Below, one piece after another: positions 1 through 44,172 of a DNA stretch of 50,623 nt. A model generated the notes under the pieces. The model was given only the letters and a program-made list of their open reading frames with translations. It was not told the origin of the DNA and ran no database searches. This DNA is from an uncultured Ruminococcus sp. (GTDB taxonomy: Bacteria > Bacillota > Clostridia > Oscillospirales > CAG-272). The DNA is taken from assembly GCA_964629225.1 (NCBI GenBank), contig CAZVQC010000006.1, positions 1-50,623 on the forward strand. The letters are read 5' to 3'. A program made the translations under genes and the position numbers. Position 1 is the first letter of the stretch, and every line of letters begins with the position of its first letter.

Positions 1-235
1 TTATTTTTTGCACTCACAATATTTGGTCGGTTGATTTGAGTTGCTCAGTCACGCCTTCACGCTCTGACCGCTGCTTCACAAGGCGGTCAAACAGTTTCTG
101 TGCCTGTTCTTCAATTTGACTGAGAAACACCCTGCAAGACCTCAAAATCTTGCAGGGTGTTCACATTAAACCGAAAACGGGAAAAGACCGTAAATTTTCA
201 CATATATATGTTTGTGTCAAGTAAAATACAGGATA

Positions 236-724
236 TTAGTTGAGCGTTACAAAAATCATTACGCCACCGCCATCATCAATCAACTCCAAAGAGTCTCCGT
301 TTTCATGTTTCGCCCGAAACTCATAACAAGTACGACCATATCGTTCTCCTATGACATTCTCGCTCACATTTACATTAAAACCTGCTTCTTTTAATGCCGT
401 ACAATATGTCAAAATGTTCTCGTGCGTTACATCTCCGTTCAAGCCGCCGTTTGTCGAGGTTACCCGAACGCTCGATGTGTCAACTTCCACGTCGTAGTTG
501 AAAGGCGGCTCGGGAATCGGCATTTCATACTCCGCACCCGCCCAGTTCATATCAAATGCAGGGGCTGATGAATCTTCCGGTTCCGATGTTGACTGTGATT
601 CTGCACTGTTTGTTGTCGATTCGTTTTCTGTAGTCGAAGTCTGTCCATTTACATTCTCATTGTTGTTTGATGTCCGGTTTTCAGCACCACACGCCACAAG
701 AGATACGCACATTACTGCTACCAA
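236..724 (-). CDS. secreted lipoprotein of unknown function
   Basis: 162-aa ORF with a TTG start (per ORF track). N-terminal signal peptide with lipobox (LVAC-G), followed by an Asn/Ser/Thr/Glu-rich linker and a small globular C-terminal domain. Imperfect hairpin downstream at ~130-165. Confidence 0.45.
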   Translation of the reverse strand: MVAVMCVSLVACGAENRTSNNNENVNGQTSTTENESTTNSAESQSTSEPEDSSAPAFDMNWAGAEYEMPIPEPPFNYDVEVDTSSVRVTSTNGGLNGDVTHENILTYCTALKEAGFNVNVSENVIGERYGRTCYEFRAKHENGDSLELIDDGGGVMIFVTLN

Positions 725-965
725 AAGCAGTGCTATTACCTTTTTTATTGTCTTTCCCTCTCATATGTAATCTGCATTAAATTATTGACTGCAACCAGTA
801 TTGCAATCAACACATTTTATAAATCATACAGTGCGTTTATTTGTTTGTCAATACTTGAGGTGATAATTCTGTTCAATTGTGGACATTTAGGGGTTAAAAA
901 AAGCCTTGTTTTAAGCCATTTTCAAAACACATAACTTGAGGGGTAAATGCACTTTTCCACTATAT

Positions 966-1269
966 GATATTCCAAAACAATATAGACAAAGGCGAGTAAT
1001 TGAAAATATCGTTGCAATGGAATTGCTCAGACGTGGAAACGAGGTCTATGCAGGGGTTCGATATAAAAAAAGAAATTGACTTTGTAGCCTTAAAACGAAG
1101 CGAAAAGATCTGTATTCAAGTTTCGGATAACATCACCTTGCCCGAAACTTTTAAAAGAGAAGTAGATCCACTTCTCAGAATCAAAGACGCCTCATATTTT
1201 TCGGTCAAAGGGATTGACTCCCCTGCAATTGCATTGTATAATGTACATCGAAAGATGTACATCAATTAA
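966..1269 (+). pseudogene. decayed C-terminal remnant of a DUF4143-type AAA ATPase gene (frameshifted)
   Basis: Two adjacent reading frames give ...[23 protein letters not shown] and [42 protein letters not shown]. Joined together they reproduce the conserved C-terminal module of Clostridial DUF4143 ATPases. The frame break sits at an A7-8 homopolymer at ~1065-1072. No Walker-A N-terminal part is present upstream. Confidence 0.45.
1214..1262 (+). promoter_or_regulatory. consensus sigma-70 promoter with overlapping palindromic operator upstream of the TetR gene
   Basis: TTGACT (1214-1219), 17-nt spacer, TATAAT (1237-1242). Immediately overlapping it is a perfect inverted repeat ATGTACATC-gaaa-GATGTACAT (1241-1262), 30 nt upstream of the TetR ATG. 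Confidence 0.6.
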
Positions 1270-1292
1270 GTTTTGCATGGAAGGAGTAGCAT

Positions 1293-1913
1293 ATGGCACC
1301 GAAGGTAAAGTTTACACGGGAAGAATTTGCACAGGAAGGGTTGAACGTGGTTCGAAAGAAAGGTTTTGCTGCTTTGACTGCGCAAGCATTGGCTGAGGAA
1401 CTGAAGATCTCTACCCGCCCGATTTTCACCTGCTTTGGAACGATGGATGAACTGAAAAAAGAGGTCTACGCTGCGGCAGAGACGGTCTATAAAAACTATG
1501 AGAGCATCGGTCTAAAGCATCCGATCCCGTTTCTCGGCACCGGGCTTCAATATATCCGCTTCGCAAAAGAAGAACCGGAATTGTATCGTTCGCTGTTTCT
1601 GACACCGGGAGCCGGCTTCGTCGGTGCTATGTCCTCTATGGCACATTTGCAAAAAATGGTAAGAGAACCATTGATGCGTATCTACAATTTGGACGAAAAG
1701 ACGGCAGACTTCTATTTCCGGGAGCTTTGGCTGGTGGTTCACAGTCTGGCTACCTTGATCGTGACCGGCGACTGCCCGTATTCCGATGAGGAAATCAGTG
1801 GGATCCTTACCGGATTCAGCGTAAGCATCTGCAAGTCCATCAAGGAAATTCCGGGTTTTGCGGATGGGACTTTTGAACGGGATGCCATCTTTCGTGCATT
1901 GGTCGCCCGGTAA
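1293..1913 (+). CDS. TetR/AcrR-family transcriptional regulator
   Basis: 206 aa. N-terminal TetR-type HTH (FTREEFAQEGLNVVRKKGFAALTAQALAEELKISTRPIFTCFGTMDELKKEVY). RBS GGAAGGAG 7 nt upstream of the ATG. Confidence 0.8.
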   Translation: MAPKVKFTREEFAQEGLNVVRKKGFAALTAQALAEELKISTRPIFTCFGTMDELKKEVYAAAETVYKNYESIGLKHPIPFLGTGLQYIRFAKEEPELYRSLFLTPGAGFVGAMSSMAHLQKMVREPLMRIYNLDEKTADFYFRELWLVVHSLATLIVTGDCPYSDEEISGILTGFSVSICKSIKEIPGFADGTFERDAIFRALVAR

Positions 1914-2180
1914 ACTGAATGGAAACGGGAGTCGAGTATTATCTGTCGGAGATCCATCATTTTGCCGCATAGGGATATGAGGTATTTGCGTTTGAATACA
2001 GCGGCTATGTCGGAAGCTCCGTGTGGATTTTCGTATGAGGGAGAAAAAGAGACGCTGTTGGCAGATTAAGTTGATAATAAGAAATTTTTGAGAGGCTTGT
2101 TTTATGCAATGTATGATGAACTGCCAACTTCAAAACCGAAATAAAGAGAAACAAATAATTTGCGGTTTACGGAGGAATTT

Positions 2181-2846
2181 ATGGAAAACACAAAGCAACT
2201 GATCGGCTGCCGTGGTTTGGACGGCGAAACTTGTGATGCCGTCATCGCAGGCTTTGTCACGCAGGGACTGCCTTCAAAAGATACGGCGGATAGAACGGGT
2301 ATCCCGCTTGACATTGCGGTATCAAGTCTGAACGGCTCAAAACAAGAATCTTTACAGGGAGCCGTAAAGACTATGAATAGAAGAATACTGATAATATCCG
2401 TAATAATTGTAATTGTACTACTTTCAATGCTTACAATATACATGTGGATTCAACCAAAAGAATTCAAGGTCGGCGATGATGAAATTGCACTGTATATACA
2501 ATTGGACACGAAGGAAGATATTGGATTGTTGGTGTTTGATTATAGCGCAAACGGTATCAAATATAGCGGAGGTACAAGTAATGCGGATAAATCACTGTTA
2601 AAGCATGATGAACGATTGATTGAAGTTTGGGATCAAGAAAGCTTGAACTGCTTTACTGATTCTGTGGAATTATACATACAGTTTAGGATCATAACAGAAT
2701 ACACAGACCCCAATTATGAAAACATATATCCGGAGAATCTTACAAAATATATGGAACCTGTTTCATTTGAAGCGAATTTTGGAGAGTCTTACTATTTTAC
2801 CATCACCGGAGATAACATAAGCGGATATACGCCGGTACAGAATTGA
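2181..2846 (+). CDS. membrane-anchored hypothetical protein
   Basis: ATG at 2181 follows GGAGGA. About 70 aa cytoplasmic, then one TM helix (ILIISVIIVIVLLSMLTIYMW) and a 130-aa extracytoplasmic domain. No recognisable family. Confidence 0.4.
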   Translation: MENTKQLIGCRGLDGETCDAVIAGFVTQGLPSKDTADRTGIPLDIAVSSLNGSKQESLQGAVKTMNRRILIISVIIVIVLLSMLTIYMWIQPKEFKVGDDEIALYIQLDTKEDIGLLVFDYSANGIKYSGGTSNADKSLLKHDERLIEVWDQESLNCFTDSVELYIQFRIITEYTDPNYENIYPENLTKYMEPVSFEANFGESYYFTITGDNISGYTPVQN

Positions 2847-3128
2847 CAGTTTTCAGTTTTGTTGGGATAAGGTGGCAATTCCGATTTAGCGAACAGACAT
2901 GCATGGTTTCACTTGCACCGAAACGGTTTTATTTTTTTGAGTGAAACCATTTGAAGCCGTATCATTTTGATCAATTCTTGCCAAAAAACTACGGAGTGCA
3001 AAGCACTCCGTAGTTTTTTGATTGCGGAAGACCTGTGCCGACCTCCGAGTTATGAGACCGACGGGCGCTATGTAGCTGTCGGACCGAATTAGCGGGCGGT
3101 CGTGCCGACTGTGGCATGGCTTCATCCA

Positions 3129-3285
3129 AAGCCGCCGCGCGTCCCGCTTCCCGGCGAGCGGAGCGAGCATTCGGGAAGGGGGATCTGTGCGGCGCCCTCG
3201 CTTCATCATGTGGTAATACTTCATCCCCAGGCGGGCAAAGCGGACGAAGGTCGCTTTGCAGTGCCGTGGGCGGTATGGCAGAGCG
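3129..3285. repeat. structured ~155-bp intergenic repeat, copy 1 of 3
   Basis: About 88% identical to 44021-44170 and partly to 40568-40690. Contains 11-bp (CCCGCTTCCCG..CGGGAAGCGGG, relative to the reverse strand) and 8-bp (GCAAAGCG..CGCTTTGC) inverted repeats. Spurious ORFs in the ORF track share peptides (ERAFGKGDLCG, KRGRRTDP) only because the DNA is repeated. Confidence 0.6.
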
Positions 3286-3620: not shown

Positions 3621-4826
3621 TCAGTGGGATGCGATATTCATGGCACCGCCGAGGACGCCTTTTTCGCCGGAGTGAACATGAAGGGTGGTGATATCCGGGT
3701 ATGCAAGATCGACTGCTCTGATGACAGTGCCTTTCCCGTAGCGGGCATCAAGGGCATCGGCGGCGCTTTCCAGCATCTCACGCTTTTGTATCTTATAGAG
3801 CTCCGGATCGAAGGACATCTGCATCTCGTTTGTGAAGATAAGTCCCGTGGCTCGGATGCTCATGGATCTTACAGGTGACGTCCATCTGTAACTGCTCTTG
3901 AACAGTTCCCATGCGCACTTGAATATCTCGGTGGAGGCACGGCAGGGGAATGTCAGTTTTTTTTGCTTTTCGTAACAGACGAGCTTTGAATCCCTCACCG
4001 CCACGGTGACGGTGTCCGCCATGCATCCGTAATTTCTCATTCTGGAGGAGACCTTTGCGGCGAGGGCAATAAGTGCCGCTCTGACGTCATCCTCATTCAC
4101 AAGGTCCCTTGGGGAGGTGTTGCCGCAGGATACCGATCTCGGCTGCACAAAGGTATCATTTTGGGCGACGGGAGAGGTGTCGAGGCCGTTTGCATAGGCC
4201 CAGAGGACTTCGCCGTTTTTGCCCATTATAGAGCGCATCAGGTGCTTTGGCATGGATGCCAGTGCTCCTACGGTGACGATGCCCCGATCCGCAAGCTTCC
4301 TTCTCGTCTTTTCCCCCACGAAGAGCAGTTCCTCAACTCCCAGCGGCCAGACCTTCTCTTTGAAGGTGTCCTTGGATATCACCGTCACCGCATCGGGCTT
4401 TTTCATGTCGCTTCCCAGCTTTGCGAAGACCTTGTTGAAGGAGACCCCCACGGACACGGTGACACCGAGGTCTTTTTTTATCCGCTCTCTTATCTCGTTT
4501 GCTATCTTTTCGCCGGTGCCGAAATATTTTCCGCTTGCGCTGACGTCCAGCCAGCATTCGTCGATGCCGAAGGGCTCCACAAGGTCGGTATACTCGCAAT
4601 ATATCCCGCGAGCCGCCTGTGAAAACTTCTCATATTCGTCGTAATGGGGCGGCACGAAGAGGATGTCCGGACATTTCAGCCGTGCCTGCCAAAGTGCCTC
4701 CCCGGTGGCGACTCCGTATTTTTTTGCCTCGTAATTCTTTGCAAGAACTATCCCGTGCCGTTTTTCCGGGTCTCCCGCCACAGCTACGGGGCGGCCGCTT
4801 ATCTTCGGGTCGAGAAAGCATTCCAC
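3621..4826 (-). CDS. dinB: DNA polymerase IV (Y-family translesion polymerase)
   Basis: 401-aa ORF with the typical DinB palm/fingers region (FVPPHYDEYEKFS..., SVGVSFNKVFAKLGSDMKKPD). The conserved N-terminus (TVLHSDLNNFFASVE) continues upstream of the annotated GTG, so the true start is uncertain. Confidence 0.85.
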   Translation of the reverse strand: MECFLDPKISGRPVAVAGDPEKRHGIVLAKNYEAKKYGVATGEALWQARLKCPDILFVPPHYDEYEKFSQAARGIYCEYTDLVEPFGIDECWLDVSASGKYFGTGEKIANEIRERIKKDLGVTVSVGVSFNKVFAKLGSDMKKPDAVTVISKDTFKEKVWPLGVEELLFVGEKTRRKLADRGIVTVGALASMPKHLMRSIMGKNGEVLWAYANGLDTSPVAQNDTFVQPRSVSCGNTSPRDLVNEDDVRAALIALAAKVSSRMRNYGCMADTVTVAVRDSKLVCYEKQKKLTFPCRASTEIFKCAWELFKSSYRWTSPVRSMSIRATGLIFTNEMQMSFDPELYKIQKREMLESAADALDARYGKGTVIRAVDLAYPDITTLHVHSGEKGVLGGAMNIASH

Positions 4827-14157: not shown

Positions 14158-14165
14158 TAAGATTA

Positions 14166-14191
14166 GCCCCCGAAGCGAATGCTTCGGGGGC
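14166..14191. terminator. palindromic hairpin GCCCCCGAAGC-gaat-GCTTCGGGGGC (copy 1)
   Basis: Lies immediately 3' of the GH3 stop. An identical copy sits at 14438-14463. Confidence 0.6.
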
Positions 14192-14437
14192 TAATCCTTT
14201 CCGCAGAGCCAAAGGACGTCAGAGCGAGAGAGGCGAAGTTATTTTTTGTGAAAGACGACCGTCGGCGTAGTAGCCTACGGTAGGGAAGGCTTTCGCAAAA
14301 GCGGCCGAAAAACAATGAAAAAGACTTGAGATCGTGATCCAAGTCTCAATGCTTTTGCCGATCTCAAACGGTTTTGACAGATCGGTGCTGACTTGATGCT
14401 TTCAGCCGCGCAAAGAACGAGCCTGTCATCGCTTTGA

Positions 14438-14463
14438 GCCCCCGAAGCGAATGCTTCGGGGGC
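14438..14463. terminator. palindromic hairpin GCCCCCGAAGC-gaat-GCTTCGGGGGC (copy 2)
   Basis: Lies 4 nt 3' of the recombinase stop (minus strand). The 28-nt core AGCCCCCGAAGCGAATGCTTCGGGGGCTA is identical to copy 1. Confidence 0.6.
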
Positions 14464-14467
14464 TATC

Positions 14468-15514
14468 TTATTCTGTATCTTCGTTTTGGAGGGAGGTTGC
14501 TTTCACTCCTGCGGTGGAGCGCTCCTTTGCGAGAGGGTTTTTAGCCATCGCCTTCCGCATTCCTTCGTCGCTTACGTGCGTGTAGATCTGGGTGGTGGTC
14601 AATTGTTCGTGTCCCAAAATGTCCTTCAGCACCCTAATGTCCACCTCTCCGGTCCGGTACATCAGTGTTGCCGCTGTGTGGCGCAGTTTGTGGGTGGAGT
14701 AGCCCTTGGCACGAAGGCCGGACTCGTCAAGGTATTTTTTGACTGTGTACTGTACCGTTTTCGGAGAGATACGCTTGCCTTGGTTGCTGATGAAAAGAGG
14801 CTTTGCGGGATCCTTGCATTTGGCGAGATATTCCCGTCTTTCCGGCAAATAGGCGGTTATTGCCGCCTTGCAGGCATCGTTCAGATAGATGAGCCTTTCT
14901 TTGTTGCCCTTTCCCAGTATCCGCATTTCGGTAATGTCCGGATCGATGTCTCTTTCACTGATGCCGCAGAGCTCGGAGAGACGGATGCCGCAGTTGAGAA
15001 AAAGAGTCAGCATGCAATAGTCACGGTTTCTCGTCTTGCTGGCAACGTCCCTGTCCACCGCCGCAAGAAGAGCGGTGCTTTCATCGACCGTGAGGAATTT
15101 CGGGAGGCTCTTTTTGTATTTCGGGGTCTCGATATCGACGGCGGGACTCTTTTCAAGTTTGTGGACCTTGTTGACGTAGTACCGGTAGAAGGCTTTTATG
15201 GATGAGAGTTTTCTGCTTCTGGTGCGCTCGTTATTGCATCTGGCATCCATTGAGTAGCTGAGATACTCGGTTATCTGCGACGGCTTCACCCTTTCGAAAA
15301 GTTCAAGGTTGACGTCCTTTATCGAGGTCTCGGCAAGAGTATCCTCGGTGGGGTCAAGTCCTGCCTCGGTAAGGCAGAGATATTTTGTAAAAAGCCTCAG
15401 ATCCGTCAGATACTCCTCCACGGTTTTGGCAGAGCATCCTTGGATGGCACGCTTGTAATTTGCAAATTCCCGAATGCAGTCGGGAAACTCGTCAATGTTG
15501 ATGTGGTAAGGCAC
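14468..15514 (-). CDS. tyrosine-type site-specific recombinase (XerC/XerD-like integrase)
   Basis: 348 aa with GTG start after GGGGGTGA. N-terminal SAM-like core-binding domain and a C-terminal catalytic domain with R..HxxR..Y (HKLRHTAAT, LGHEQLTTTQIYTHV). Confidence 0.8.
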   Translation of the reverse strand: MPYHINIDEFPDCIREFANYKRAIQGCSAKTVEEYLTDLRLFTKYLCLTEAGLDPTEDTLAETSIKDVNLELFERVKPSQITEYLSYSMDARCNNERTRSRKLSSIKAFYRYYVNKVHKLEKSPAVDIETPKYKKSLPKFLTVDESTALLAAVDRDVASKTRNRDYCMLTLFLNCGIRLSELCGISERDIDPDITEMRILGKGNKERLIYLNDACKAAITAYLPERREYLAKCKDPAKPLFISNQGKRISPKTVQYTVKKYLDESGLRAKGYSTHKLRHTAATLMYRTGEVDIRVLKDILGHEQLTTTQIYTHVSDEGMRKAMAKNPLAKERSTAGVKATSLQNEDTE

Positions 15515-15818: not shown

Positions 15819-15903
15819 TGGTGCGGACGAAGGGATTTGAACCCTAACACCGAAAGGTACCGGATCCTAAATCCGGCGCGTCTGCCAGTTCCGCCACGTC
15901 CGC
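15819..15903 (-). tRNA. tRNA-Leu (anticodon TAG)
   Basis: 85 nt. GCGGACG/CGTCCGC acceptor stem; anticodon stem-loop CCGGA-TTTAGGA-TCCGG; long variable arm; GGTTCAAATCC T-loop; encoded CCA. Confidence 0.85.
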
Positions 15904-15942: not shown

Positions 15943-16280
15943 GATGCAAGGAGCGATTTTTACGCCTTGTCGGGGAAAGCGTGGGAGAGTTGGTAGAGAT
16001 CGATTTGAAGCGTGTTTGCACGAAAAGGCAAGTTCGGGGTGTGTCAAGATGAAAGTGATATTGCGTTTTACGCAGTGATGAATGATGCAAGATGCGGCGC
16101 TGCGGCGGCATTGCGGTCACTTTTCGCTCTGCGAAAAGCCGCATTGATAAGAGGACATATCCCTCCGTCATCGGGCTTCAACCGATGCCACCTCCCCTTA
16201 GGCAGAGGAGGCTTCGGTGAGGGATCGTTTTCTTGTCAATAGTGGGAAAGTGGGTGCGGCGGTACCGAGTCCACAATCGG

Positions 16281-17924
16281 TCATTCCCCGCTTTCGCTCT
16301 CGTGCCTATGGACTGCGGCGTAGCGCAGGAGCTGTTTTAGAGAGTGGACGCCGAGCTTCGAGTAGATATTCTTGTTATGGAAGCGGACGGTGGACTCTTT
16401 CAGGTCAAGGTAGGTGAGGATGTCTTTTACGGACTTGCCCTCGATGTAGAGCTCCAGTATCTCCTTTTCCTTGCCGGTGAGGGTACTGAGACCTATTTTG
16501 AAGTTTTCGTAGTCAAAGGGGTCTATCTCGTCCTTGCGGGAGTAGGCGAGGCGTTCGTTCTGCTTCACCGTCTCGTCAAATCTGCTTTGAAGCTCGTCGG
16601 CGGCACTTTCCGCATCGGATTTTTCGCGGCGAAGACGGTCAAGTTCCTCCTCGTTCATCCTATCTTGCTCGGCAAGGAATTTGAAAAGGTCATTTATCTC
16701 CGCCGAATACGTCGTGTCGTAGGAGTATTCTTTCTTTCGGATGCTGTCAAGGGCACTCTTGAGGGGCTTCAGATACCGCTTTGCAAAGAAGAGGGACAGT
16801 GCCACAAGGGATACGGTGAAGATGATCGCCAGAAGTACGATCCTCAGTACGTCGACGGATGCCATGTGCTGATAATCGGACTTCGGTATCAGCACACTTA
16901 TTGCCGAGGTGCATCTGCTGGGGCAGAGACGTATCTCCTCGGTAATGCCGATGTACGCCTCGGCCTCTCCCTGATATTCGGTGAGACCGCTGCCGAATGG
17001 AGCCCGTGTGAAGCTGCCGTAGGGCTCGGCGTAATAGGTATTCAAGATGCCGGCACAGAGGGTAGTGGACTCCGACAGAATGAGACCGTCACAGTCCTTT
17101 GAGATGCAGAACAACGCACGGTCAAGTTCGGAGGGCTGGGCGAATATCTGCTTGAAGTAGCCCTCGTTGAGCTCAAAGCCGCATAATCCGTAGAATTCCC
17201 CGTCACGTGACAGAAGGGGGACGGTCATCAGCATAACGTGCTGATCCGTGCCCGGAAGGAGCACTACGTCGGTGATGCGGTAGCTTTGGTTGAGGGGGAA
17301 GGATGCCTCTGACTTAAGCTCCCCGTAATTCGGGAACAGGTCCGTGTTGAACTCAAGCCTCCATTTTCGGTGGGGCATACAGTTGTGATCCTTGCCGGTC
17401 TTGGAAAGGCCGCGGTAGAGCAGCACCCGATTGTCGGATGCCTCAAGGCTGTTGCGCTGAAGGTAGATGCCGGTGCGGGAGGTGTCGGCGTTTTCCACGT
17501 TTGGATTGACATGGGCATCAAGCATTACGAAGACACCGGTGCAGTCGGCTTCAAACAGCTTGTGCCGCGCCGTGTTGATCAGCAATTCCTGAAGGTCTTC
17601 GATGCGTTCCTCGGAGCCGTTCAGATCCCCGATGGTGATATTATTGTCTGTAAGATAGCTTTCAAGTATTTTCGTAGTTTCGTCGGACAGCTGAACGCTC
17701 ATGACGGCAAGACCGTCATAGTAAGTATCTATCTGCCTCTCAAACAGCTCGGTCTGAAATCGGAGAGTATCCGCCAAACGTTTCTTGGTGCCGGTAAAGT
17801 TACCGATGAGGAACAGCCCCGCAATGAGCAGTGCGCAGAGCAGCAATGCCAAGATGCACATATAGCCGAAAAGCTTCCGCCTGAGAGTCAGTTTCCTGCT
17901 TGAATTATAGTCGGACAGTTTCAT
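16281..17924 (-). CDS. membrane-bound LuxR-family one-component regulator with extracytoplasmic sensor domain
   Basis: 547 aa. TM1 (res ~20-41), a ~300-aa periplasmic-side domain, TM2 (res ~352-375), a cytoplasmic coiled-coil, and a C-terminal LuxR/FixJ-type HTH (LTGKEKEILELYIEGKSVKDILTYLDLKESTVRFHNKNIYSKLGV). Confidence 0.7.
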   Translation of the reverse strand: MKLSDYNSSRKLTLRRKLFGYMCILALLLCALLIAGLFLIGNFTGTKKRLADTLRFQTELFERQIDTYYDGLAVMSVQLSDETTKILESYLTDNNITIGDLNGSEERIEDLQELLINTARHKLFEADCTGVFVMLDAHVNPNVENADTSRTGIYLQRNSLEASDNRVLLYRGLSKTGKDHNCMPHRKWRLEFNTDLFPNYGELKSEASFPLNQSYRITDVVLLPGTDQHVMLMTVPLLSRDGEFYGLCGFELNEGYFKQIFAQPSELDRALFCISKDCDGLILSESTTLCAGILNTYYAEPYGSFTRAPFGSGLTEYQGEAEAYIGITEEIRLCPSRCTSAISVLIPKSDYQHMASVDVLRIVLLAIIFTVSLVALSLFFAKRYLKPLKSALDSIRKKEYSYDTTYSAEINDLFKFLAEQDRMNEEELDRLRREKSDAESAADELQSRFDETVKQNERLAYSRKDEIDPFDYENFKIGLSTLTGKEKEILELYIEGKSVKDILTYLDLKESTVRFHNKNIYSKLGVHSLKQLLRYAAVHRHESESGE

Positions 17925-20012: not shown

Positions 20013-20305
20013 CGGTGAAGGCCAAGTGGGAACAGCTTGAAAGATACGGCTTCGGCCCCAACGTGATGAAGCGTACCAGGGTGTGCCCGTCCTGCGGAAG
20101 GATGGTGACGAACACCTGCAGCTCCTGCCCCGATTGCGGAATGCGCCTTATGAAAAAGACCCTGTGGGACAGGTACAGAGAGCGGCATATGTGCTGTGAC
20201 AGATGCGGCACGGTGCTGGCGGTGGATTCAAGATACTGCCCCCATTGCGGAAGAGCACTCTACGTGAAAAAGGCTCTTCGCTCCGAAAAGAAAAGCAATG
20301 CGTAA
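20009..20305 (+). CDS. small double-zinc-ribbon protein
   Basis: 98 aa with ATGA overlap onto the previous gene. Two CxxC..CxxC ribbons (CPSCG..CSSCPDCG; CDRCG..CPHCG). Confidence 0.6.
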   Translation: MTVKAKWEQLERYGFGPNVMKRTRVCPSCGRMVTNTCSSCPDCGMRLMKKTLWDRYRERHMCCDRCGTVLAVDSRYCPHCGRALYVKKALRSEKKSNA

Positions 20306-20339
20306 CGAATCGAAGAACGATCTGAAGGAGGATCAAAGA

Positions 20340-23300
20340 ATGAAGACCAAGAGACCCCTGAGAGCAGTCAGTTTCATTCTCACCCTTATCATGCTGGTGG
20401 GAATGCTTCCTCTGTCCGCCATCTCATCCATGGCGGCGATACCGGCAGTGGACAGCTCCGTATGGACACTTGTGGGAACGGACAGTAAAGCGTCTAATGC
20501 GGCGCGCTACACCGAGCTTAAAGACGCTCTTGAGAATACCGCCGTTTCTCTGATCAATACGGCGTATGTCCGCCTTGAAAGAGATATCAAATTGGATGCG
20601 GACCTGTCGAAGAGCAGTTGTGTCTTTACAGAGGACTCGATCACTATAGTGGTCACCCGAAAAGTCGTGTTTGACTTGAACGGACACACCTTAAAGGCTA
20701 AAGTCTACGACGGAACCGGAGAGTATCTCGATCCCGTTTCACTGACCATGTTTGAGATCAGAGACGGTGGAAAGCTCACGATAGTTGACAGCAAGGGCAA
20801 GGGCAAGATAGCTACCGACAGCTGGATCTCGGAGCCCCACGTGGACCTGGGTGCCGCCGGTGACATCAATGTCTTTGATATGTTCAAGATAAAAGGAGGC
20901 GGAGAGCTCATTATCAACGCTTCCGGCGCCGAGTTTGAATGCGGTCGCTCAAAGCAGCAGTGGGTAACACGTGCATACACGGTCGATAGAGAACCTGGTG
21001 GCGTTCCCGATGCATCCGACTTTTTTACGGGAAATATTCGCGGTCAGGCCTGCGGCTCCGTTTTTATCGCAGAGTCCAACAGTAAGATCACCGTTGCCGG
21101 AGGAAAGTTTCTTGCAAGGGGATACAGAGGTGTCTATCACCGAGGCTACGGCGATCCTTGTGCGGTCTTTGATGTAAGTGCAAATACTGTCGTCGACATC
21201 ATTGACGGTACATTCTACGGTAAGGGCTGCGCCGACGTGTTCGATGCGGATAAAACTGCCAAGATCACGATTCGTTCGGGTGTGTTCGACGTTTTCAAGG
21301 TAGATAAGGTTCCCGTTTTAAATTACCCGTACCATGAAGACCTTCTCAGCTATTACAGGTACACCCGCTTTACAAACGGCAGATACGGCGAGGTCGGCAT
21401 CCCCGACAGCGCCCTTGATCCGGACAACACCGATATCATAATCGGCGGACACAATTACAGCGAGGACGAGGATAAGGATAATTCCGCAAGCGATACTCAC
21501 AAGACCGTTACGGTAAAACCGAAGACGGGCGCCAAGACTCCCGACGATAGGATCATTGTGGAAAATGAAAACGGAATCGGTGCCTGGAACGGCAGCGACT
21601 CCTACGTTATCAATGCAAAGAACGGCAGAGCCTATTTCTCCGACAGCGACAGAGCGTACCTTGACGACGACCTTCAAAAGGATACGACAGGTTACTTCCT
21701 TTGGACCTTCACTCTGTACGATGCCAAAACGGGTGAAAAATGCGATGCGGAGCCGATGCAGGTGGCAAGTCTCGGTTCCGATGACACGATATCCATCGAT
21801 CTGAAGGACTATAAACAGACAAATACCACTACCTTCAAGTACTATTTCGAAAATGACGGGATCAGCAGTTACAAAATAAAGGCAGAGGTGGAAGAGGTCT
21901 GGGCAGGCCACCATACATACAAACCGAAGTTCCATAACTGGTTCTATTTCAACGAGTACCGGTCTTTTCTCGGTATCGACGCCAACGAGGCGGCGGAGAT
22001 ACTTGACTTCACCGTGACACCGAGAACGCCGAGCTCCGATTGCACATCCTACACCCTCAACACGGAAAACGAAGAGGGGATGGAGTATTATTTCGAATTC
22101 TTGGGAAATAATTCCAAAGGCGCTGTGACCTGTAACAGCTATTATCGCTACTGCAAGGTGGACACGGCGGGAAAAACGGTGCTGTCTTCGAAGCAGGAGA
22201 TAGCGACCGGCACGGAATACGGTGAACCCATTGAATTTATTGTCCCCCCGAAGCATGGCGGTCCCGTGTACGTTACGGTGGAATACGTATTCAGAAGAAG
22301 CATCAACTCTTCAGCTGCGGTAGACGTTGTGACCATAACCAAGACACATCTTGCCTATGCACTTGACTTCATGACATACGATGTCCTCGCAGCGGATGAG
22401 GCAATAAGAACGGGCCGTGTCTCCGCTTCCTACGGTAATTACGATACGGTGGAGCTTTATGATGGCGAGACTGTCCTCATAAAGCCCAACATCAGCGCCG
22501 ATATGGCAAAAACGGACGTGATCAACCCGATAACGGGCAAGACCTTCTCCAAGAGCGATATCAAGTGGCAGCTCTCCACCGGACTTGACGATTACGGCAA
22601 TCACGTTTGGAATGATGTTCCCGCTCGTGAGATAGTCAATCAGGAGATCGACGGCGTAACTCTCCCATGTGTTAAGACCAACAGAACGGCGTGGTACAGA
22701 ATGAGTTACGTTTGGAACGGCGAGACTTACCATTCGCCTCAGTCGCTTCTTGTGAAGGGCGTTTCCTACGAAAAGAACCGCATTGCCACCGTGATCCGAA
22801 GCGACAGATTCACCGGTATATACGGCAAGGGCGAAAACAAATTGTATCTTGACGTCAATAAGGATGCCGACTGGAACACCGGAGGCTGCTCCGTGGACTC
22901 CATACGTATCTTCCTGATGGAAAAGCCCGATGGAGCGAACCCCGGCAGTACGATGAAGACACCGAGTAGCTTCGCGACCGGTCAAAACGGTCTGATCGAG
23001 CTTATCAATACCGACAGCTTCTTCGAAAATGAGGCGGGCGCCGTAACGGGTATGTACACCTTCCGTGTCAGGGTTACGGGTACCAATGCCGACGGCTCCA
23101 CGTACTACGTTACTGCGAACTGTGACGTCTGGTACAGTCAACAGACCACCGACTTAAATATCTACGTGAACGGCATGCCGATCTACAAGCATGATGAGAT
23201 CAACATTCCATGTATCCTGACGGCGGATACCAATCTGTTCGACTTCACCTGCGACTATTATCCGCTGAACACCATGGGCAACGGCATTGACAAAAGTTCT

Positions 23301-26054: not shown

Positions 26055-26276
26055 ATACATGGCACTGCGTTTTCCAAAGTGTCAAAGGAAGACCGCTGCC
26101 GTGATCCGGACGGAATGCCCTCTGTCGAAGGGACGGGGTGAGAGACCCGGCTCTTCAACGGGGCTTAGGCTTCGATATGCGTTTTGAAAATAATTCCCCG
26201 ACACGGTCTGCGTTTTGTGATATCGCTAACGGACGTGGGGATAAATAACAGTGAAACGGACAAGGAGGAACACAAA

Positions 26277-29200
26277 ATGAAAACAAAGAGACCGATACGG
26301 TTTGTCAGCATCCTTCTCACCTTAATAATGGTGATCGGTGTGCTGCCACTGTCGGCGCTCTCGACCCTTGCTGCCGGCATAAGTTATGCCGATGAGCCCA
26401 ACTGGGTCTTGGTAGGTACCGACAGCAGTGCGAGCGCCGAGGAGAATTTGAAGAGTCTTACGACCTTGCTGACGGACGAGAGCGGCTCCGGTGCCAACTA
26501 CACCGGCGACACTTTGTACGTCAGACTTGAAAAAGATATCGCAGTCGATTTCAAGAGAGTTGTCAACAGCTTTGCCTCGGAGACCAACGGAGGCAACATG
26601 AACATTGCGGTAGTCGGCAAGAAGGTGCTTGATCTTAACGGACACACCGTCAAGTCAAAAATGATGCTTGGCGACATCGACGACGAATGGTACGATCCCT
26701 ACAGAGGCACTTTTCTCCTCGTATACGGCGACCTTACCATAGTTGACTCCAAGGGCGGCGGCGAGATGAAGTCTGATATGCAGATACAAAATGTCCGTCC
26801 GGAGGAAGTCTACCACTACGACCTGTTCCACGTAATGGACGGAGGAGAGCTGACCGTCAATGCGCCCGGCTCGAAATTCACAAGCGGTCGCTCGCAGGAA
26901 TACTATGATGACAGCGACTACCATATCAGAAATCACTGGTACCGCAGTCAGTCAAACGGCTCCCCGGTCGACGTTCACTCCGGCGGTAAGCTGACCGTTG
27001 CGGGAGGAACTTTCAACGGCAGAGGATACTCCTTTGACAGACGTAAGCATGACTATACAAGATTTGACTGTGCGGCTATTCTTGCGGAGAAAAACTCCAC
27101 GGTCTATATCATCGACGGTAACTTCTACGGCAGAGGCGGAGCCGATGCGCTGAACATATCGAACGATGCGGACATAACGGTAGAGTCCGGTGTTTTCGAC
27201 GTTTTCAAGGTGGACCGTCTTGCCGAAATGAAACACGACGCAGGCACGATGAATATAGTCGACGGTTGGTACGGAGACGTGGGTCTTCCCGAAAGAGTGA
27301 AAACTCAGCTTGCCCTCAAGGGCTCCGCTGTGGAGATAGTAAAGAACGGTCACGATGTTACGGGTGACGAGCTTAGCGACAGCAGCCTTGTCACGGACCG
27401 AAGCACTGCAAAGATCACCGTCCGTCCCACGGGCGGAAGCAACAATTTGGACAGCCGTGTGAGCATCGTCTCCGATAACGGTGTTTCCAGTATCAATCCC
27501 AATACCGTCAGCGGATCGGACACTTACGTGGTGAACGCCGAGTATAAGAACCCCTATTTCTCAAGGACGGCGGCGGAATTCTCCGAGTCAAACTACCGTC
27601 CTCGGAACAAGGATATCGGCAAAAACAGCGATGAATACTACCTGACATGGACCTTCACTCTTCGCGATACGGACGGCTCCAAGGTCGCCGATCTTGCCAA
27701 GGTCACGACAGTGGGAACTCAGACCTCCGTCAGCGTGGACCTTATTGCGGAATACGGCGCCTCAAAGTGGAGAAATCTGAGTACCGGCGACTATAAGATC
27801 CGTTTGGAGATCACCGAGTGCTGGAAGGGTGATCACACCTACAAGAGCACCTGGAGAAACGAGATGGGACTCAACCTCAGTGACAATTCACTGCTCACCT
27901 ATCTCTCCGGCATTACGGACTTCAAGTTTGACTTCAACGTAGTACATAACAAGGATCTCTACTACGGCGATACCCAGTATCTGTCATTTGAACTTGACTA
28001 CTACACGGTGAATGACCTTAACGAGATCAGAGATTCCTACAACAACTACTACGGCGGTTTCAGTATCATGGTCTCATATACCGTCGAATCCTACGATCCG
28101 AAGGGCAACAACTACGTGACAAATACGGATCCGAAGCCCATAGCAAGCACGATAACCGCCGCTGTTAACGACGGTGCGGGCCCGAAGGTCATAACAGCCA
28201 ATATATACATTCCGAGATTCGACGATTCCACCCGCAAGATAGTGGGATACGACGTTCTTACCACGAGAAAGAATTTCCTGCTTCTGCCGACGATGAGCAA
28301 GTGCCTTGACAGCGATGCGGAGACCGTGGGATTCCATAAGCCCGTATCATTGACACATACCGACAGTTACGTGAAGGTCGATACCGCAGAGGACGTCTGG
28401 GGTGCGCCTTTGGCAGACAGCGGTACGTTCTCATGGCAGTGGTATTCCGTCTACGACCACGATATCGGTGCGGACGTGGATATCCACGGCGACTCCTCCC
28501 CCTACAGCAAGTACACCATAGCGGCGGAAGGCAACAGTTACAAGATATCGAGGGACGGAACGTACCGTCTTGCATTCAGCTACGTTCCGAACAACGGCGG
28601 TGTTCCGGAGGAGTTCGTATCGGTGCCCATCGATATCTATGCCTCCAACAGTCAGGAACTTAAGATAGCGACCCTCAGCGGCAGCGAGACCGTACGTCCC
28701 ACGTTGGACGAACTCGGAAGATCGCCTTTGAGACTTGACCTCGGAGAGGGAAGCTGGGGTACGGTCGAATCGGTTACTCTTTCAATAAAGGGACGTCCCA
28801 CACAGGTGGCACATTCTTCACCCATTGAAGGCTCGTACTGCTTCTCAGCCGCAGCAAGGGAGGGCTACTACCTTTTCTACCTGAATGATTTTCCGAGCAT
28901 ACAGGACGCTATTGCCGACGGATGTGCAGGCGGTGAATACACGTTCCGTGCCACGATTCAGGGTAAAGACATCTACGGCTACAAATATAAAACATCTTCA
29001 AACGATCTCACGGTAACGTTCGAGCAAGAGGCGGAGGGCTACGGCCTTATCGTCAACGGAGAGTACCTCGGCAGAGGATGGTCGACTGAAGAGGAAGCAA
29101 AGGCACAGGTCATCCCCCTCTTCATCAACAGTAAGAGCCCCGAAATTACTTTACAGGTGGCATATTATCCCGAAAGTGCCACATTCGATCCCAATAACAG

Positions 29201-34617: not shown

Positions 34618-34685
34618 TAAAAAGTAAGTCGAGGAGAGATCCCCGATTCGGGGATCTCTCGCAAAATAAAATACAGGAGAAAATC

Positions 34686-39997: not shown

Positions 39998-40402
39998 ATG
40001 GATCATATCGGAAAATGGAAACTTAAGGGCATGAACGTCCCCACGGAAAACGGAATGGTATTCTGCACCAAGGAGACCATCCCGGACGAATTCAAAGAAA
40101 CTTTTGAAGAGACGGAACTCACAGAACTCGAATTCCTTGAGGACGGCACGTACAACATGATACAAAAGGTTGAGGGCGAGCTTGCCGAGCAGGCAAAGGC
40201 GGAAGGAATGGAGATCCGCGATGACGGCTATGTTGTGGCTCTCAGTGCAAAATGGGAAGACCGTAACGGCACCGTCTATTATGACACCGGTGCTGAAGGT
40301 ACCATCTTGGATGAGGAGATCGATCCCTTTGAACCTCTTCAGTTCAGCGAGGACGGTTACCTGATTTACAACTACGGTATGTGCTTTTTCGAGCGCGCGT
40401 GA
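39998..40402 (+). CDS. acidic hypothetical protein
   Basis: 134 aa. RBS AAGGAGG. Confidence 0.5.
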   Translation: MDHIGKWKLKGMNVPTENGMVFCTKETIPDEFKETFEETELTELEFLEDGTYNMIQKVEGELAEQAKAEGMEIRDDGYVVALSAKWEDRNGTVYYDTGAEGTILDEEIDPFEPLQFSEDGYLIYNYGMCFFERA

Positions 40403-40700
40403 TCTGTTTTTGAGATAGTTTTTTTCGGGGAGGGCTTTTTCCCAAAAAGCCCTCCCCGACTCCTTCCCAAAAAAACTTGGGGGTGTTTTTTATTGGGGAG
40501 GACTTTTTTGAAAAAAGTCCTCCCCAATCCCCTCCCAAAAAAACTTTTGGGAAGGCTTTGGCGGAGGGAACGAGCATTCGGGAAGAGGGATCTGTGCGGC
40601 GTCCCCGCTTCATCGTTTTGTAAGGTTCTGTCTCCCGGCGGGCAAAGCGGGCATAGATCGCTTTGCGGCGCCGGGGGCGGTGGACGTCACCTTTTTGACA
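40403..40700. repeat. composite intergenic repeat: two ~65-bp palindromic hairpin units plus a truncated copy of the ~155-bp repeat
   Basis: Hairpins GGGAGGGCTTTTTCCCAAAAAGCCCTCCCC and GGGGAGGACTTTTTTGAAAAAAGTCCTCCCC, each followed by CCCAAAAAAACTTTGGG. Positions 40568-40690 are homologous to 3161-3285 and 44050-44170. Confidence 0.55.
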
Positions 40701-41020
40701 ATGGCGAATCTTTGCCGTGCTTGCATTAAAACTGCCGAGCACTCTCACTAAAAAGCCGCCGGATTGCACAATGACGCCTCACGGCACCCGATTGCGCCGT
40801 AAATTCATGAATGACGTAGGTGCCAATTCATTTTTTCACCTAATTTTAGGAGAAATTCACAAAAGGGACTATACAAACGGCGATAGTTATGATATAATAT
40901 AACCGTAGATGGGAAAGGCGGTAAGATAAAAACCACGGTAAAGCCCGTCACAGCCGCATCATTTCCTTCTGCAAAGGCGGCTTTATGCCGCAAGAAAATC
41001 ACAGAAAAGGCGGTATTCCT

Positions 41021-43635: not shown

Positions 43636-43709
43636 TGGCTGCGGAACTAGGATTTGAACCCAGACAAACAGAGTCAGAGTCTGTCGTGCTACCCTTACAC
43701 AATTCCGCA
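43636..43709 (-). tRNA. tRNA-Gln (anticodon CTG)
   Basis: 74 nt. TGCGGAA/TTCCGCA acceptor stem; anticodon arm ACAGA-CTCTGAC-TCTGT; T-arm CTGGG-TTCAAAT-CCTAG; discriminator G plus CCA. Architecture parallels B. subtilis tRNA-Gln. Confidence 0.7.
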
Positions 43710-43789: not shown

Positions 43790-44172
43790 TAGGTTTTTCG
43801 GGGGATTCTTTTGGGAGGACTTTTATCAAAAACGTCCTCCCAAAACCCTTCTCAAAAAAACTTTGGGATGTTTTTTGCAGGGTTCTTTTGCCTCGGGTGG
43901 CTACAGAGTGCTTGCAGATCCCGCAAGCGCTTTTGCCGCGAGTTACTTTTGCGCAGCGGGAAAATCATTGAGGCGTTGAGGAGCATTATCGGGAACCCCT
44001 CACGCTGCGCAAAACCTTTGCAGCCGCCGCGCGTCCCGCTTCCCGGCGATGGGAGCAAGCATTCGGGAAGCGGGATCTGTGCGGCGCCCCTGCTTCATCT
44101 GTTTGTAAGGCTTCATCCCCCGGCGGCAAAGCGGACGAAGGTCGCTTTGCAACGCCGTGGGCGGTATGAGAC
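43790..44172. repeat. composite intergenic repeat copy 3 (one hairpin unit plus a full ~155-bp repeat)
   Basis: Hairpin GGGAGGACTTTTATCAAAAACGTCCTCCC at ~43809-43838. Positions 44021-44170 are ~88% identical to 3129-3285. Confidence 0.55.

What the first reader, a model, noticed from the sequence alone, without database searches (positions are those of the whole stretch)
3129..3285. Three-copy ~155-bp structured intergenic repeat family, with two copies flanking the hpf/tRNA-Gln region
Copies lie at 3129-3285 and 44021-44170 (~88% identical) and as a truncated copy at 40568-40690. Each contains an 11-bp and an 8-bp perfect inverted repeat that would form two strong stem-loops in RNA or DNA. 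Copies 2 and 3 are each preceded by one or two ~65-bp units made of a 10-12-bp GC hairpin around a T5-6/A5-6 loop plus CCCAAAAAAACTTTGGG (40421-40560; 43809-43870). All copies are intergenic. Copy 3 lies 80 bp from tRNA-Gln, and copies 2 and 3 bracket a 3.3-kb block (hpf, phosphoesterase, liaF-like, tRNA-Gln). The family could be a MITE-like mobile element, a small-RNA gene family, or REP-like regulatory and insulating elements.
Basis: seen in the sequence. Interest (0 to 1): 0.55.

Follow-up and report, generated by a model that had tools for sequence, protein, structure and literature searches.

The report
Lineage-specific two-hairpin intergenic repeat family
A real, previously undescribed ~150-base repeat that folds into two strong hairpins is scattered between genes in an uncultured Ruminococcus-like gut bacterium and its close kin; it is a new example of an ordinary class of bacterial intergenic repeats, not a new kind of system.

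Summary
The repeat is real. There are two full ~150-bp copies (3128-3280 and 44020-44171, 90% identical) and one 5'-truncated copy (40559-40687), all on the + strand and all non-coding. I recovered five more DNA copies and four more as spurious-ORF peptides from metagenome assemblies, at unrelated intergenic loci, with identities of 63-97%. The family is narrow. It is absent from 185,579 species-representative genomes, JGI metagenomes, IMG/VR, plasmids, phages and Rfam, and from 1.1 Mb around the orthologous tex locus of 80 related species. Each unit is a 23-bp hairpin, a ~30-nt linker with an invariant GCTTCATC, and an 18-bp hairpin. Stems vary far less than unpaired positions (p = 1.4e-4). 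Three stem pairs show compensatory changes. G·U pairs outnumber A·C, and all eight copies fold better on the sense strand. I found no terminal inverted repeats, no consistent target duplications, no transposase and no shared promoter. The 5' neighbours are a mosaic of other repeat modules. Best reading: a lineage-specific, non-autonomous dispersed structured repeat, like Bacillus cereus bcr1 or REP/BIME/BOX elements, that probably acts as sense-strand hairpins in read-through or 3'-UTR RNA. The family is a new member of a known kind and of modest interest.

The parts
3128..3280 (+). Repeat unit 'A', copy 1 (full length). Hairpin 1 is 3133-3194, the linker is 3195-3225 and hairpin 2 is 3226-3270.
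   Evidence: nhmmer E 2.6e-49. Covariance model 172 bits. Fold -73 kcal/mol on the + strand against -58 on the - strand.
3078..3127 (+). 5' extension of copy 1 ('module D'), shared with some but not all other copies.
   Evidence: Peptide-level homology between P0003 and P0008 runs about 14 aa beyond the core. L031 shares CTTCAYCCAAAGCC. 9 of 11 metagenome contigs end exactly at 3121.
40559..40687 (+). Repeat unit 'A', copy 2. It is 5'-truncated: the 5' arm of hairpin 1 is missing and hairpin 2 is intact at about 40632-40677. It abuts the second 71-bp unit directly.
   Evidence: nhmmer hit to model positions 24-151, E 3.3e-39. Inverted repeats.
44020..44171 (+). Repeat unit 'A', copy 3 (full length). 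Hairpin 1 is 44025-44086 and hairpin 2 is 44118-44161.
   Evidence: nhmmer E 3.7e-49. Covariance model 173 bits. Perfect 12-nt and 8-nt inverted repeats.
40421..40559 (+). Two tandem 71-bp 'B' units (40421-40491 and 40489-40559). Each is a long GGGGAGG..CTTTTT/AAAAAG..CCTCCCC hairpin followed by a CCCAAAAAAACTTGGG hairpin and a T-run. The first starts 18 nt after the stop of ORF 39998-40402. They are terminator-like.
   Evidence: Family D4. Folds of -36 to -38 kcal/mol, z -4 to -5.7. Terminator scan hit at 40464-40483. B-like modules lie right after stop codons in related genomes.
43806..43876 (+). Third 'B' unit, between the tRNA-Gln promoter and copy 3.
40679..40696 (+). Small hairpin GGTGGACGTCACC plus TTTTT at the 3' edge of copy 2. 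Comparable short hairpin and T-rich tails follow five of the eight copies (copy 2, copy 3, L031, L034 and L121; L031's tail is only TT); the two-copy 'CGGT-N8-ACCG' form is in L031 and L034.
   Evidence: Terminator scan. 3' tails compared.

Best explanation
The ~150-bp unit belongs to a lineage-restricted family of non-autonomous, dispersed, structured intergenic repeats in an uncultured Ruminococcus-like (Oscillospirales/Eubacteriales) gut bacterium and its close relatives.

Shown:
- The same unit sits at many unrelated intergenic sites, next to a changing mosaic of other repeat modules.
- Its two hairpins are preserved while unpaired parts drift.
- The structure is strand-specific.

Inferred:
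- The unit was spread by a copy-and-paste or recombinational process supplied in trans, by an unknown agent.
- It persists because the sense-strand hairpins are under constraint.
- It acts when transcribed as part of read-through or 3'-UTR RNA from the gene upstream. There, two hairpins of about -30 to -40 kcal/mol each would block 3'-exonucleases or separate neighbouring transcription units, as REP/BIME, ERIC, BOX and bcr elements do.

It is not tied to hpf or tRNA-Gln in particular.
For: The family extends beyond the window.
- A profile of the translated repeat found 11 unnamed ORFs among 1.84 billion proteins.
- The DNA behind them gave five new copies: upstream of uvrA (L031), near tRNA-Leu (L032), after an unnamed gene (L033), between an unnamed gene and a DUF218 gene that lies next to iPGM (L034), and directly after an RHS-like gene (L121).
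- Four more copies are known only as peptides.
- Boundaries agree across copies, and identities are 63-97%.

The distribution is narrow.
- The 22-nt invariant core gave 0 exact hits in genome contigs, metagenome contigs and viral contigs.
- There is no match in plasmids or phages or in Rfam.
- nhmmer and covariance-model searches found 0 hits in 1.1 Mb around tex in 80 related species, whose Tex proteins are at most 78% identical.

The structure is conserved.
- 96.7% of pair cells are paired.
- Three pairs carry compensatory double changes, and L121 has a matching deletion in both arms of hairpin 1.
- Variable columns are 9/82 paired against 22/56 unpaired, Fisher p = 1.4e-4.

The structure is strand-specific.
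- G·U occurs in 14 pairs against A·C in 3.
- All 8 copies fold better on the sense strand, by a mean of 12.4 kcal/mol.
- All three window copies lie on the G-rich, gene-rich + strand.

Position and arrangement.
- At least five of eight copies point the same way as the gene upstream (copies 1 and 2, L033, L034, L121; for L031 only an upstream terminator-like hairpin is visible), and all lie outside the predicted promoters.
- The 5' neighbours differ between copies: module C in L033, L034 and L121; module D in copy 1 and P0008; B units in copy 2.
- Metagenome contigs break at the repeat edge at 3121.
Against: - No hallmark of transposition was found: no terminal inverted repeats, no consistent target duplication, and no transposase, reverse transcriptase or HUH gene in the window.
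- No empty site was available for comparison. Every strain-level contig carries the copies.
- Transcription is untested.
- In copy 1, L033 and L034 a terminator lies between the upstream gene and the repeat, so RNA would arise only by read-through.
- The G·U excess rests on few events (about 11 pairs against 3 once the non-homologous part of copy 2 is excluded). Leading-strand C-to-T mutation bias could contribute to it.
- The covariation counts were made on an alignment fitted to the model.
- The copy number in the source genome is unknown.
Confidence: 0.6

Rival explanations
1. It is a family of small-RNA genes. Each copy would be an independently transcribed ~165-nt sRNA (hairpin 1, linker, hairpin 2, then a short terminal hairpin with a U-run). 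The conserved single-stranded linker (GCUUCAUC ... GUAAG) would act as a seed or a protein-binding site.
For: - The structure is strand-specific and conserved, with compensatory changes.
- Unpaired motifs are invariant across all 8 copies.
- A short hairpin and a T-rich tail follow five of the eight copies.
- The copies run in the same direction as the surrounding genes.
Against: - The copies share no upstream sequence and no promoter-like motif. Homology begins at the base of hairpin 1.
- One copy lacks the 5' third of the unit.
- The 5' neighbours are other GC-rich repeat modules.
- The terminal hairpins have only 4-5 bp, and two copies lack them.
- Loops and linker are about as conserved as expected from recent common ancestry.
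Confidence: 0.15
2. The units are leftover or miniature ends of a larger mobile element that moves as single-stranded DNA or by a non-DDE recombinase. Candidates are IS200/IS605-type 'PATE' elements or REP/RAYT-like units, or IS110-type non-coding ends. Subterminal hairpins on one strand would be what the enzyme recognises.
For: - The unit has two subterminal hairpins, no terminal inverted repeats and no target duplications.
- The folding is strand-specific.
- All three window copies have the folded strand on the G-rich strand, which is inferred to be the lagging-strand template.
- The 5' end is variable or truncated while the 3' end is constant.
Against: - No Y1/HUH, TnpB, IS110 or other transposase gene lies next to any of the 8 copies or elsewhere in the 50-kb window.
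- The two hairpins are not alike, whereas the left-end and right-end hairpins of IS200/IS605 elements are similar to each other.
- No common tetra- or pentanucleotide precedes the left ends.
- Three co-oriented copies have a 1-in-4 probability by chance.
Confidence: 0.15
3. Copies 2 and 3 are the direct-repeat ends of a 3.3-kb mobile or recombining cassette that carries hpf, a phosphoesterase gene, a liaF-like gene and tRNA-Gln.
For: - Both ends carry B units plus an A unit in the same orientation.
- In related species this block is not upstream of rsuA-tex.
Against: - Copy 1 and five other copies stand alone, without any such cassette.
- The block contains housekeeping genes and no recombinase.
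- Metagenome contigs all show the same arrangement, with no alternative junction.
- Synteny with species at or below 78% identity is too loose to date an insertion.
Confidence: 0.04
4. The similarity is chance, or the units are decayed fragments of a duplicated protein-coding gene.
For: Four of the six reading frames are open across the unit, and gene callers have annotated ORFs over it.
Against: - Chance expectation is 0.00 matches, and nhmmer E-values reach 1e-49.
- Copies differ by frame-breaking indels.
- The exhaustive protein search returned only short, unnamed ORFs that overlap other repeat copies, and no real family.
- Variation follows the stems, not codon positions.
Confidence: 0.02

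Closest known systems
bcr1 repeat of the Bacillus cereus group (Okstad 2004; Klevan 2007; summarised in Delihas 2011, PMC3184786)
   Same: - Both are about 155 bp and occur in Firmicutes.
- Both are restricted to a narrow lineage and are intergenic and dispersed.
- Both are predicted to form two independent stem-loops, with compensatory changes that keep the stems.
- Both are often part of UTRs or intergenic operon regions (PMC3446304).
   Different: - bcr1 is flanked by 5-bp direct repeats and its distribution differs between close strains, which is evidence of mobility. Here I saw no consistent flanking repeat and had no empty site to compare.
- bcr1 is known to be transcribed. This unit is untested.
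- No sequence relationship is expected, because this unit is 61-68% G+C. bcr1 sequences were not compared directly.
REP / BIME elements of enterobacteria and pseudomonads
   Same: - Both are G+C-rich extragenic palindromes.
- Both occur in mosaic combinations with other short modules.
- Both lie after genes and between convergent genes.
- The proposed roles are the same: mRNA 3'-end protection, termination and insulation (established knowledge; review PMC3184786).
   Different: - REP units are 20-40 nt single palindromes with a GTAG or CGTC tag (PMC3733652, listed). This unit is 150 nt with two unlike hairpins and no such tag at either hairpin base.
- No RAYT gene is known for this organism.
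BOX, RUP and SPRITE repeats of Streptococcus pneumoniae; ERIC of enterobacteria; Correia/NEMIS of Neisseria
   Same: - All are 100-160-bp structured intergenic repeats of narrow host range.
- BOX has a modular build.
- SPRITE resembles a terminator.
- All are co-transcribed with neighbouring genes and affect mRNA stability (PMC3184786).
   Different: RUP, ERIC and Correia elements have terminal inverted repeats and TA or other target duplications, which is classical MITE anatomy. Neither feature is seen here.
IS200/IS605-derived miniature elements (PATEs)
   Same: Both have subterminal hairpins, lack terminal inverted repeats and target duplications, and show strand-specific structure.
   Different: - Their left and right hairpins resemble each other and sit next to a fixed target tetra- or pentanucleotide. 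Neither feature is seen here.
- No TnpA or TnpB gene was found nearby.

Membership tests
Classical MITE | Terminal inverted repeats at both ends | tested here: not met
   The ends are AGCCGCCGCG... and ...GTGGGCGGTA. Only a 5-6-nt complementarity (GCCGCC/GGCGGT) is present.
Classical MITE | Target-site duplication flanking each copy | tested here: not met
   The longest shared flank words are not above shuffled expectation in 5 of 7 copies. The two exceptions (7 nt at copy 1, a 7-mer scored and extended by eye to 10 nt at L032) differ in sequence and position.
Classical MITE | Many dispersed copies, small size, non-coding | tested here: met
   8 DNA copies plus 4 peptide-only copies lie at unrelated loci. 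The unit is about 150 bp and copies differ by frame-breaking indels.
Classical MITE | Parent insertion sequence with matching ends | not testable with these tools
   The complete genome is not available. There is no transposase in the window and no match in plasmids or phages.
REP / BIME | A 20-40-nt imperfect palindrome with a GTAG or CGTC head | tested here: not met
   The unit is 150 nt with two different hairpins of 23 and 18 bp. No GTAG or CGTC tag lies at either hairpin base.
REP / BIME | Mosaic clusters with other short motifs in extragenic space | tested here: met
   The unit is combined with modules B, C, D or E in different copies.
REP / BIME | Cognate RAYT (TnpA-REP) gene in the genome | not testable with these tools
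   Only the 50-kb window and short contigs are available.
bcr1-type structured repeat (Bacillus cereus group) | Sequence homology to bcr1 | not tested
   No bcr1 sequence was compared. Host and G+C content differ, so the relationship is treated as analogy only.
bcr1-type structured repeat (Bacillus cereus group) | About 155 bp, two independent stem-loops kept by compensatory changes, lineage-specific | tested here: met
   Absence from relatives is shown.
bcr1-type structured repeat (Bacillus cereus group) | 5-bp flanking direct repeats, and differing positions between close strains | tested here: not met
   No common flanking repeat was found. All strain-level contigs carry the copies at the same sites.
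Independent sRNA gene | Own promoter conserved with the unit | tested here: not met
   No upstream sequence is shared among copies, and no promoter-like site lies directly upstream.
Independent sRNA gene | Intrinsic terminator at the 3' end | tested here: inconclusive
   A 4-5-bp hairpin and a T-rich tail follow five of the eight copies. The feature is weak in the others.
Independent sRNA gene | Discrete transcript | not testable with these tools
   No expression data are available.
Any Rfam family | Covariance-model match | tested here: not met
   The only hits at gathering score are two tRNAs. Nothing credible appears at E<=10 over copy 1, at E<=0.1 over L031-L034 or at E<=1 over the module C + unit region of L121.

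The most novel reading that the evidence does not exclude
The unit, alone or as the ~330-nt 'module C + unit' form seen in L033, L034 and L121, could be a functional strand-specific nucleic-acid machine rather than passive repeat DNA. One possibility is a new structured non-coding RNA class carried in 3' UTRs. Another is the recognition module of an undescribed mobile element that moves as single-stranded DNA and lacks both terminal inverted repeats and target duplications.
Probability: 0.12. Interest if true: 0.6.

Novelty: new member of a known kind. Interest (0 to 1): 0.3.

Why it matters
Practical value.
- The family, and the companion modules B, C and E, explain why metagenome assemblies of this lineage break at intergenic sites.
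- They also explain why gene callers emit unnamed 90-220-aa 'proteins' here. Masking the units would clean up annotation.
- The unit could serve as a lineage marker for this uncultured, dockerin-bearing gut clade.

Biological value.
- It adds a G+C-rich, two-hairpin repeat with evidence of stem conservation and strand specificity to the list that includes bcr1, REP, BOX and ERIC.
- It does so in a group (Oscillospirales-like Clostridia) where I know of no such repeats having been described.

It does not open a long-standing question. Its mode of spread and its effect on neighbouring genes remain to be shown.

Tried and rejected
- **Exact-pattern scans for the 22-nt invariant core.** There were 0 hits in genome contigs, metagenome contigs and viral contigs.
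- **Scan with the hairpin-2 pattern.** It gave 6 metagenome hits, all chance hairpins lacking the rest of the unit, and 0 viral hits.
- **Protein search with all open frames of copies 1 and 3 concatenated.** It found nothing.
- **Word-indexed search with the frame profile.** It recovered only 2 of the 11 ORFs that the exhaustive search found.
- **Two look-ups of repeat-derived ORFs (P0005, P0008).** Their DNA was not on record.
- **Homology beyond the 3' end of the three window copies.** None was found.
- **Similarity between the 5' flank of copy 1 (module D) and module C.** Not significant.
- **The idea that L032 is the orthologue of the copy 3 site, because both sit near a tRNA.** Rejected: its tRNA is Leu(CAA), not Gln.
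- **A conserved leader of hpf or rsuA-tex.** Rejected. Relatives keep the rsuA-tex-ABC ATPase order but have no such unit.
- **Group II intron domain, retron, attC site, CRISPR.** I considered these from memory. Nothing in Rfam or in the gene neighbourhood supports any of them.

Full report
**The observation**

The window holds three copies of one sequence, all on the + strand.
- Copy 1 is at 3128-3280, copy 3 at 44020-44171 and copy 2 at 40559-40687.
- Copies 1 and 3 are full length and 89.9% identical over 149 nt.
- Copy 2 lacks about the first 25-30 nt and is about 74-77% identical to the others.
- Two conserved core patterns, TTCGGGAAGNGGGATCTGTGCGG and GGCAAAGCGGNCNNAGNTCGCTTTGC, each occur exactly three times, with none in 100 shuffles.
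- nhmmer finds no fourth copy in the window.

- The first inverted repeat is 12 nt. It is perfect only in copy 3, 92% complementary in copy 1 and absent from copy 2. The 8-nt repeat is perfect in all three.
- Copy 3 is 311 bp from tRNA-Gln (43636-43709), not 80 bp.
- The 71-bp unit before copy 3 is separated from it by 144 bp.

**Surroundings**

- Copy 1 lies between a + strand ORF (2160-2846) with its terminator-like hairpin (about 2975-3020, read from the sequence) and the end of dinB (3621-4826, - strand).
- Copy 2 lies after ORF 39998-40402 and two tandem 71-bp units. It is upstream of the predicted hpf promoter at 40870-40898.
- Copy 3 lies between the predicted divergent promoters of tRNA-Gln (43758-43730, - strand) and rsuA (44295-44323).
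- None of the copies is inside an obvious transcription unit.
- The ORFs that overlap the copies have no Pfam match. Copies differ by 1-, 5- and 8-nt indels, so the unit is non-coding.
- The window contains no transposase. Its one tyrosine recombinase (14468-15514) is unrelated in position to the repeats.
- Cumulative GC skew rises across the whole window and most long genes are on the + strand. I infer that the + strand is the leading strand.

**The organism**

- Exact matches to window proteins occur only on short Logan contigs from three run series. These contigs are 99.4-100% identical to the window and carry the same copies at the same sites.
- The closest species-representative genomes have Tex proteins only 77-78% identical. 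They are uncultured 'Ruminococcus sp.' rumen MAGs and Eubacteriales or Clostridia MAGs from animal guts.
- Two tandem ~1900-aa proteins carry dockerin repeats.
- The source is therefore an uncultured Ruminococcus-like gut or rumen bacterium with no near relative in the reference set.

**Finding more copies**

DNA pattern scans failed.
- The invariant 22-nt core gave no hit in the genome, JGI metagenome or viral collections.
- A hairpin-2 pattern gave only six chance hairpins.

The unit is open in four of six reading frames. I therefore aligned its minus-frame translations (A2) and searched 1.84 billion representative proteins with that profile.
- Eleven proteins matched. All are short and unnamed, and they carry the repeat peptide in different sequence contexts.
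- Their DNA gave five new copies:
  - L031, upstream of uvrA;
  - L032, 249 bp from a tRNA-Leu;
  - L033;
  - L034, between an unnamed gene and a DUF218 gene that lies next to iPGM, in a sample that also holds the window organism;
  - L121, directly after the stop of an RHS-like gene in a dockerin-bearing relative.
- Four more copies are known only as peptides (P0005, P0008, P0011, and P0003 as a strain variant of copy 1).
- Cluster records place several of these ORFs on NCBI contigs of 29-105 kb.

The family is larger than three.

**Distribution**

- nhmmer and a covariance model (R1) found nothing in 1.1 Mb around tex in 80 related species. The window's density of 3 copies per 50 kb would predict dozens.
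- Those species keep the rsuA-tex-ABC ATPase order but not the hpf/LiaF/tRNA-Gln block. The unit is therefore not a conserved leader of these genes.
- There is no match in Rfam, plasmids or phages.

**Anatomy**

All full copies share the same core.
- The core starts at (A)GCCGCCGCGCG and ends at GGGCGGTA.
- Hairpin 1 has 23 pairs. An outer 8-bp stem and an inner 12-bp stem are separated by a 2-nt bulge, and the loop is about 17 nt.
- A ~30-nt linker follows. It carries an invariant GCTTCATC and a GTA motif.
- Hairpin 2 has 18 pairs around the invariant GCAAAGCG/CGCTTTGC.
- A short 4-5-bp hairpin with a T-rich tail follows five of the eight copies.

**Is the structure maintained?**

- On the model-fitted alignment of eight copies, 96.7% of pair cells are paired.
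- Three pairs of hairpin 1 show double compensatory changes: C-G to A-U in L034, and C-G to U-A and U-A to G-C in L121.
- The covariation score exceeds all but 3 of 500 shuffles. That control is lenient and the alignment leans towards the model.
- L121 has lost the inner stem on both arms together.
- On the independent MAFFT alignment, variable columns are 9 of 82 paired against 22 of 56 unpaired (Fisher p = 1.4e-4).
- The stems are therefore protected relative to loops and linker.

**Which strand folds?**

- Three G·U pairs are fixed. One-sided changes give G·U in 14 pairs against A·C in 3.
- All eight copies fold more stably on the sense strand, by 5-19 kcal/mol (mean 12.4).
- This points to the sense strand as the folded species, either as RNA or as single-stranded DNA.
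- Two caveats apply. The number of events is small, and leading-strand mutation bias pushes in the same direction.

**Edges and neighbours**

- There are no terminal inverted repeats beyond GCCGCC/GGCGGT, and no consistent target duplication.
- The 5' side is a mosaic.
  - L033, L034 and L121 share a ~170-nt G-rich module C.
  - Copy 1 shares about 45 nt (module D, 3078-3127) with the P0008 copy and partly with L031.
  - Copy 2 is cut off exactly where the second 71-bp B unit ends.
  - Modules D and C are not similar to each other.
- Nine of eleven metagenome contigs that carry dinB stop at exactly window position 3121. In a k-mer assembly this is what a branch at a repeat edge produces. I infer that the first ~30 nt of copy 1 occur in another context in those samples.

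**The 71-bp B units are a separate matter**

- Each is two tandem hairpins. In two of the three the second hairpin is followed by a U-run.
- B-like modules sit right after stop codons in related species, including next to hpf in L043 and L045.
- I read them as a clade-wide terminator-type module, not as part of the 150-bp unit.

**Interpretation**

The evidence fits a lineage-restricted, non-autonomous, dispersed structured repeat.
- *Shown:* dispersal to unrelated intergenic sites, narrow distribution, conserved strand-specific hairpins, mosaic neighbours and no coding capacity.
- *Inferred:* spread by a function supplied in trans, and action as sense-strand hairpins in read-through or 3'-UTR RNA.

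At least five of the eight copies point the same way as the upstream gene. In L121 module C plus the unit begins about 20 nt after the stop codon. In copy 1, L033 and L034, however, a terminator comes first.

The closest described analogue is bcr1 of the Bacillus cereus group. It is about 155 bp, has two independent stem-loops kept by compensatory changes, is lineage-specific and is transcribed within UTRs (PMC3184786; PMC3446304). REP/BIME, BOX, ERIC and SPRITE are similar in role. Membership of the MITE and REP families fails on their defining features. Lineage-specific repeats of this size are common in prokaryotes, and only about a quarter of them are linked to known mobile elements (PMC3372372).

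**Rivals**

- *An independent sRNA gene family.* It has the structure and a weak terminator in its favour, but no shared promoter and a 5'-truncated member.
- *A miniature or leftover end of a single-stranded-DNA transposon or similar element.* This would explain the subterminal hairpins, the lack of inverted repeats and duplications, and the strand bias. However, no matching enzyme gene or fixed target motif was seen.
- *A cassette formed by copies 2 and 3 around hpf/tRNA-Gln.* Nothing supports this beyond the bracketing itself.
- *Chance, or a decayed gene.* Both are excluded.

**Verdict**

This is a real feature and a new sequence family, but of a well-known kind. Interest is modest (0.3). 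The open points are copy number in the full genome, how the unit spreads and whether it is transcribed. All three can be tested directly with the complete MAG and expression data.

Noticed in passing
window 16122-16261 (- strand); L031 about 878-1074 and 290-498 (- strand); weak piece at window 43899-43970 (- strand): This is another dispersed repeat ('module E', ~200 bp, rich in hairpins). L031 holds two 90+% identical copies, one on each side of its 150-bp unit. The window has a strong partial copy just downstream of the LuxR-type gene 16281-17924 (nhmmer E 2.4e-26), and a weak fragment upstream of copy 3. There is no Rfam match.
   Followed up: partly
L043 14308-14357; L045 14496-14663; L065 7407-7482; L074 5862-5940 and 20016-20084: Related species carry double-hairpin modules like the window's 71-bp units (GGGGAG..CTTTTT/AAAAAG..CTCCCC, then CCC..AAAAA..TTTGGG). 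They start a few to a few tens of nt after stop codons, in two cases next to hpf. This looks like a clade-wide terminator-type module with an unusually conserved sequence.
   Followed up: partly
L033 about 690-880, L034 about 3078-3215, L121 about 2620-2740 (all - strand): A ~170-nt G+C-rich 'module C' lies directly 5' of the unit in three copies. It consists of several hairpins and runs of four or five G (GGGGG-A-GGGG ... GGGGG-ATA-GGGG) that could form a G-quadruplex. It is absent from the window.
   Followed up: partly
window 1-3020 and position 3121: The first 3 kb has 39-45% G+C against about 52% elsewhere. It holds a TetR-family gene and two ORFs with no Pfam match. It ends at a terminator just before module D and copy 1. 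9 of 11 metagenome contigs stop exactly at 3121, and only one runs on into the low-G+C part. The cause could be a strain-variable island or simply a repeat-induced assembly break.
   Followed up: partly
window 20298-25979 and 26184-31892: Two tandem paralogous genes encode ~1900-aa proteins with C-terminal dockerin repeats. They share a 300-bp stretch that is 100% identical (25245-25544 = 31158-31457), although similarity elsewhere is much lower. That suggests recent gene conversion.
   Followed up: no
window 14165-14193 and 14437-14465: A perfect 29-bp palindromic sequence (AGCCCCCGAAGCGAATGCTTCGGGGGCTA) occurs twice, 272 bp apart. One copy is just after the GH3 gene and the other just after the stop of a tyrosine recombinase gene (14468-15514, - strand) that lies near tRNA-Leu (15819-15903).
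   Followed up: no
window 33205-35624: Two neighbouring genes (SPFH/Band-7 with a double zinc ribbon, and DUF4428 with a double zinc ribbon) carry a repeated ~28-69-nt coding motif (KFCPECG-type zinc-ribbon repeats) four and two times respectively (six of the seven copies of family D3; the seventh is at 20112).
   Followed up: no
window 50314-50386 and 50551-50623: A 73-nt direct repeat, 99% identical, with 237-bp spacing, runs off the end of the window. It is probably a repeat-domain coding region.
   Followed up: no
L032 about 415-425 and 610-625: The same 10-nt word AAAAAGAGGC lies about 25-30 nt outside each end of the L032 copy. The right-hand occurrence forms the 5' side of a terminator-like hairpin. 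It could be a real target duplication for a longer inserted segment, but no other copy shows the like.
   Followed up: partly
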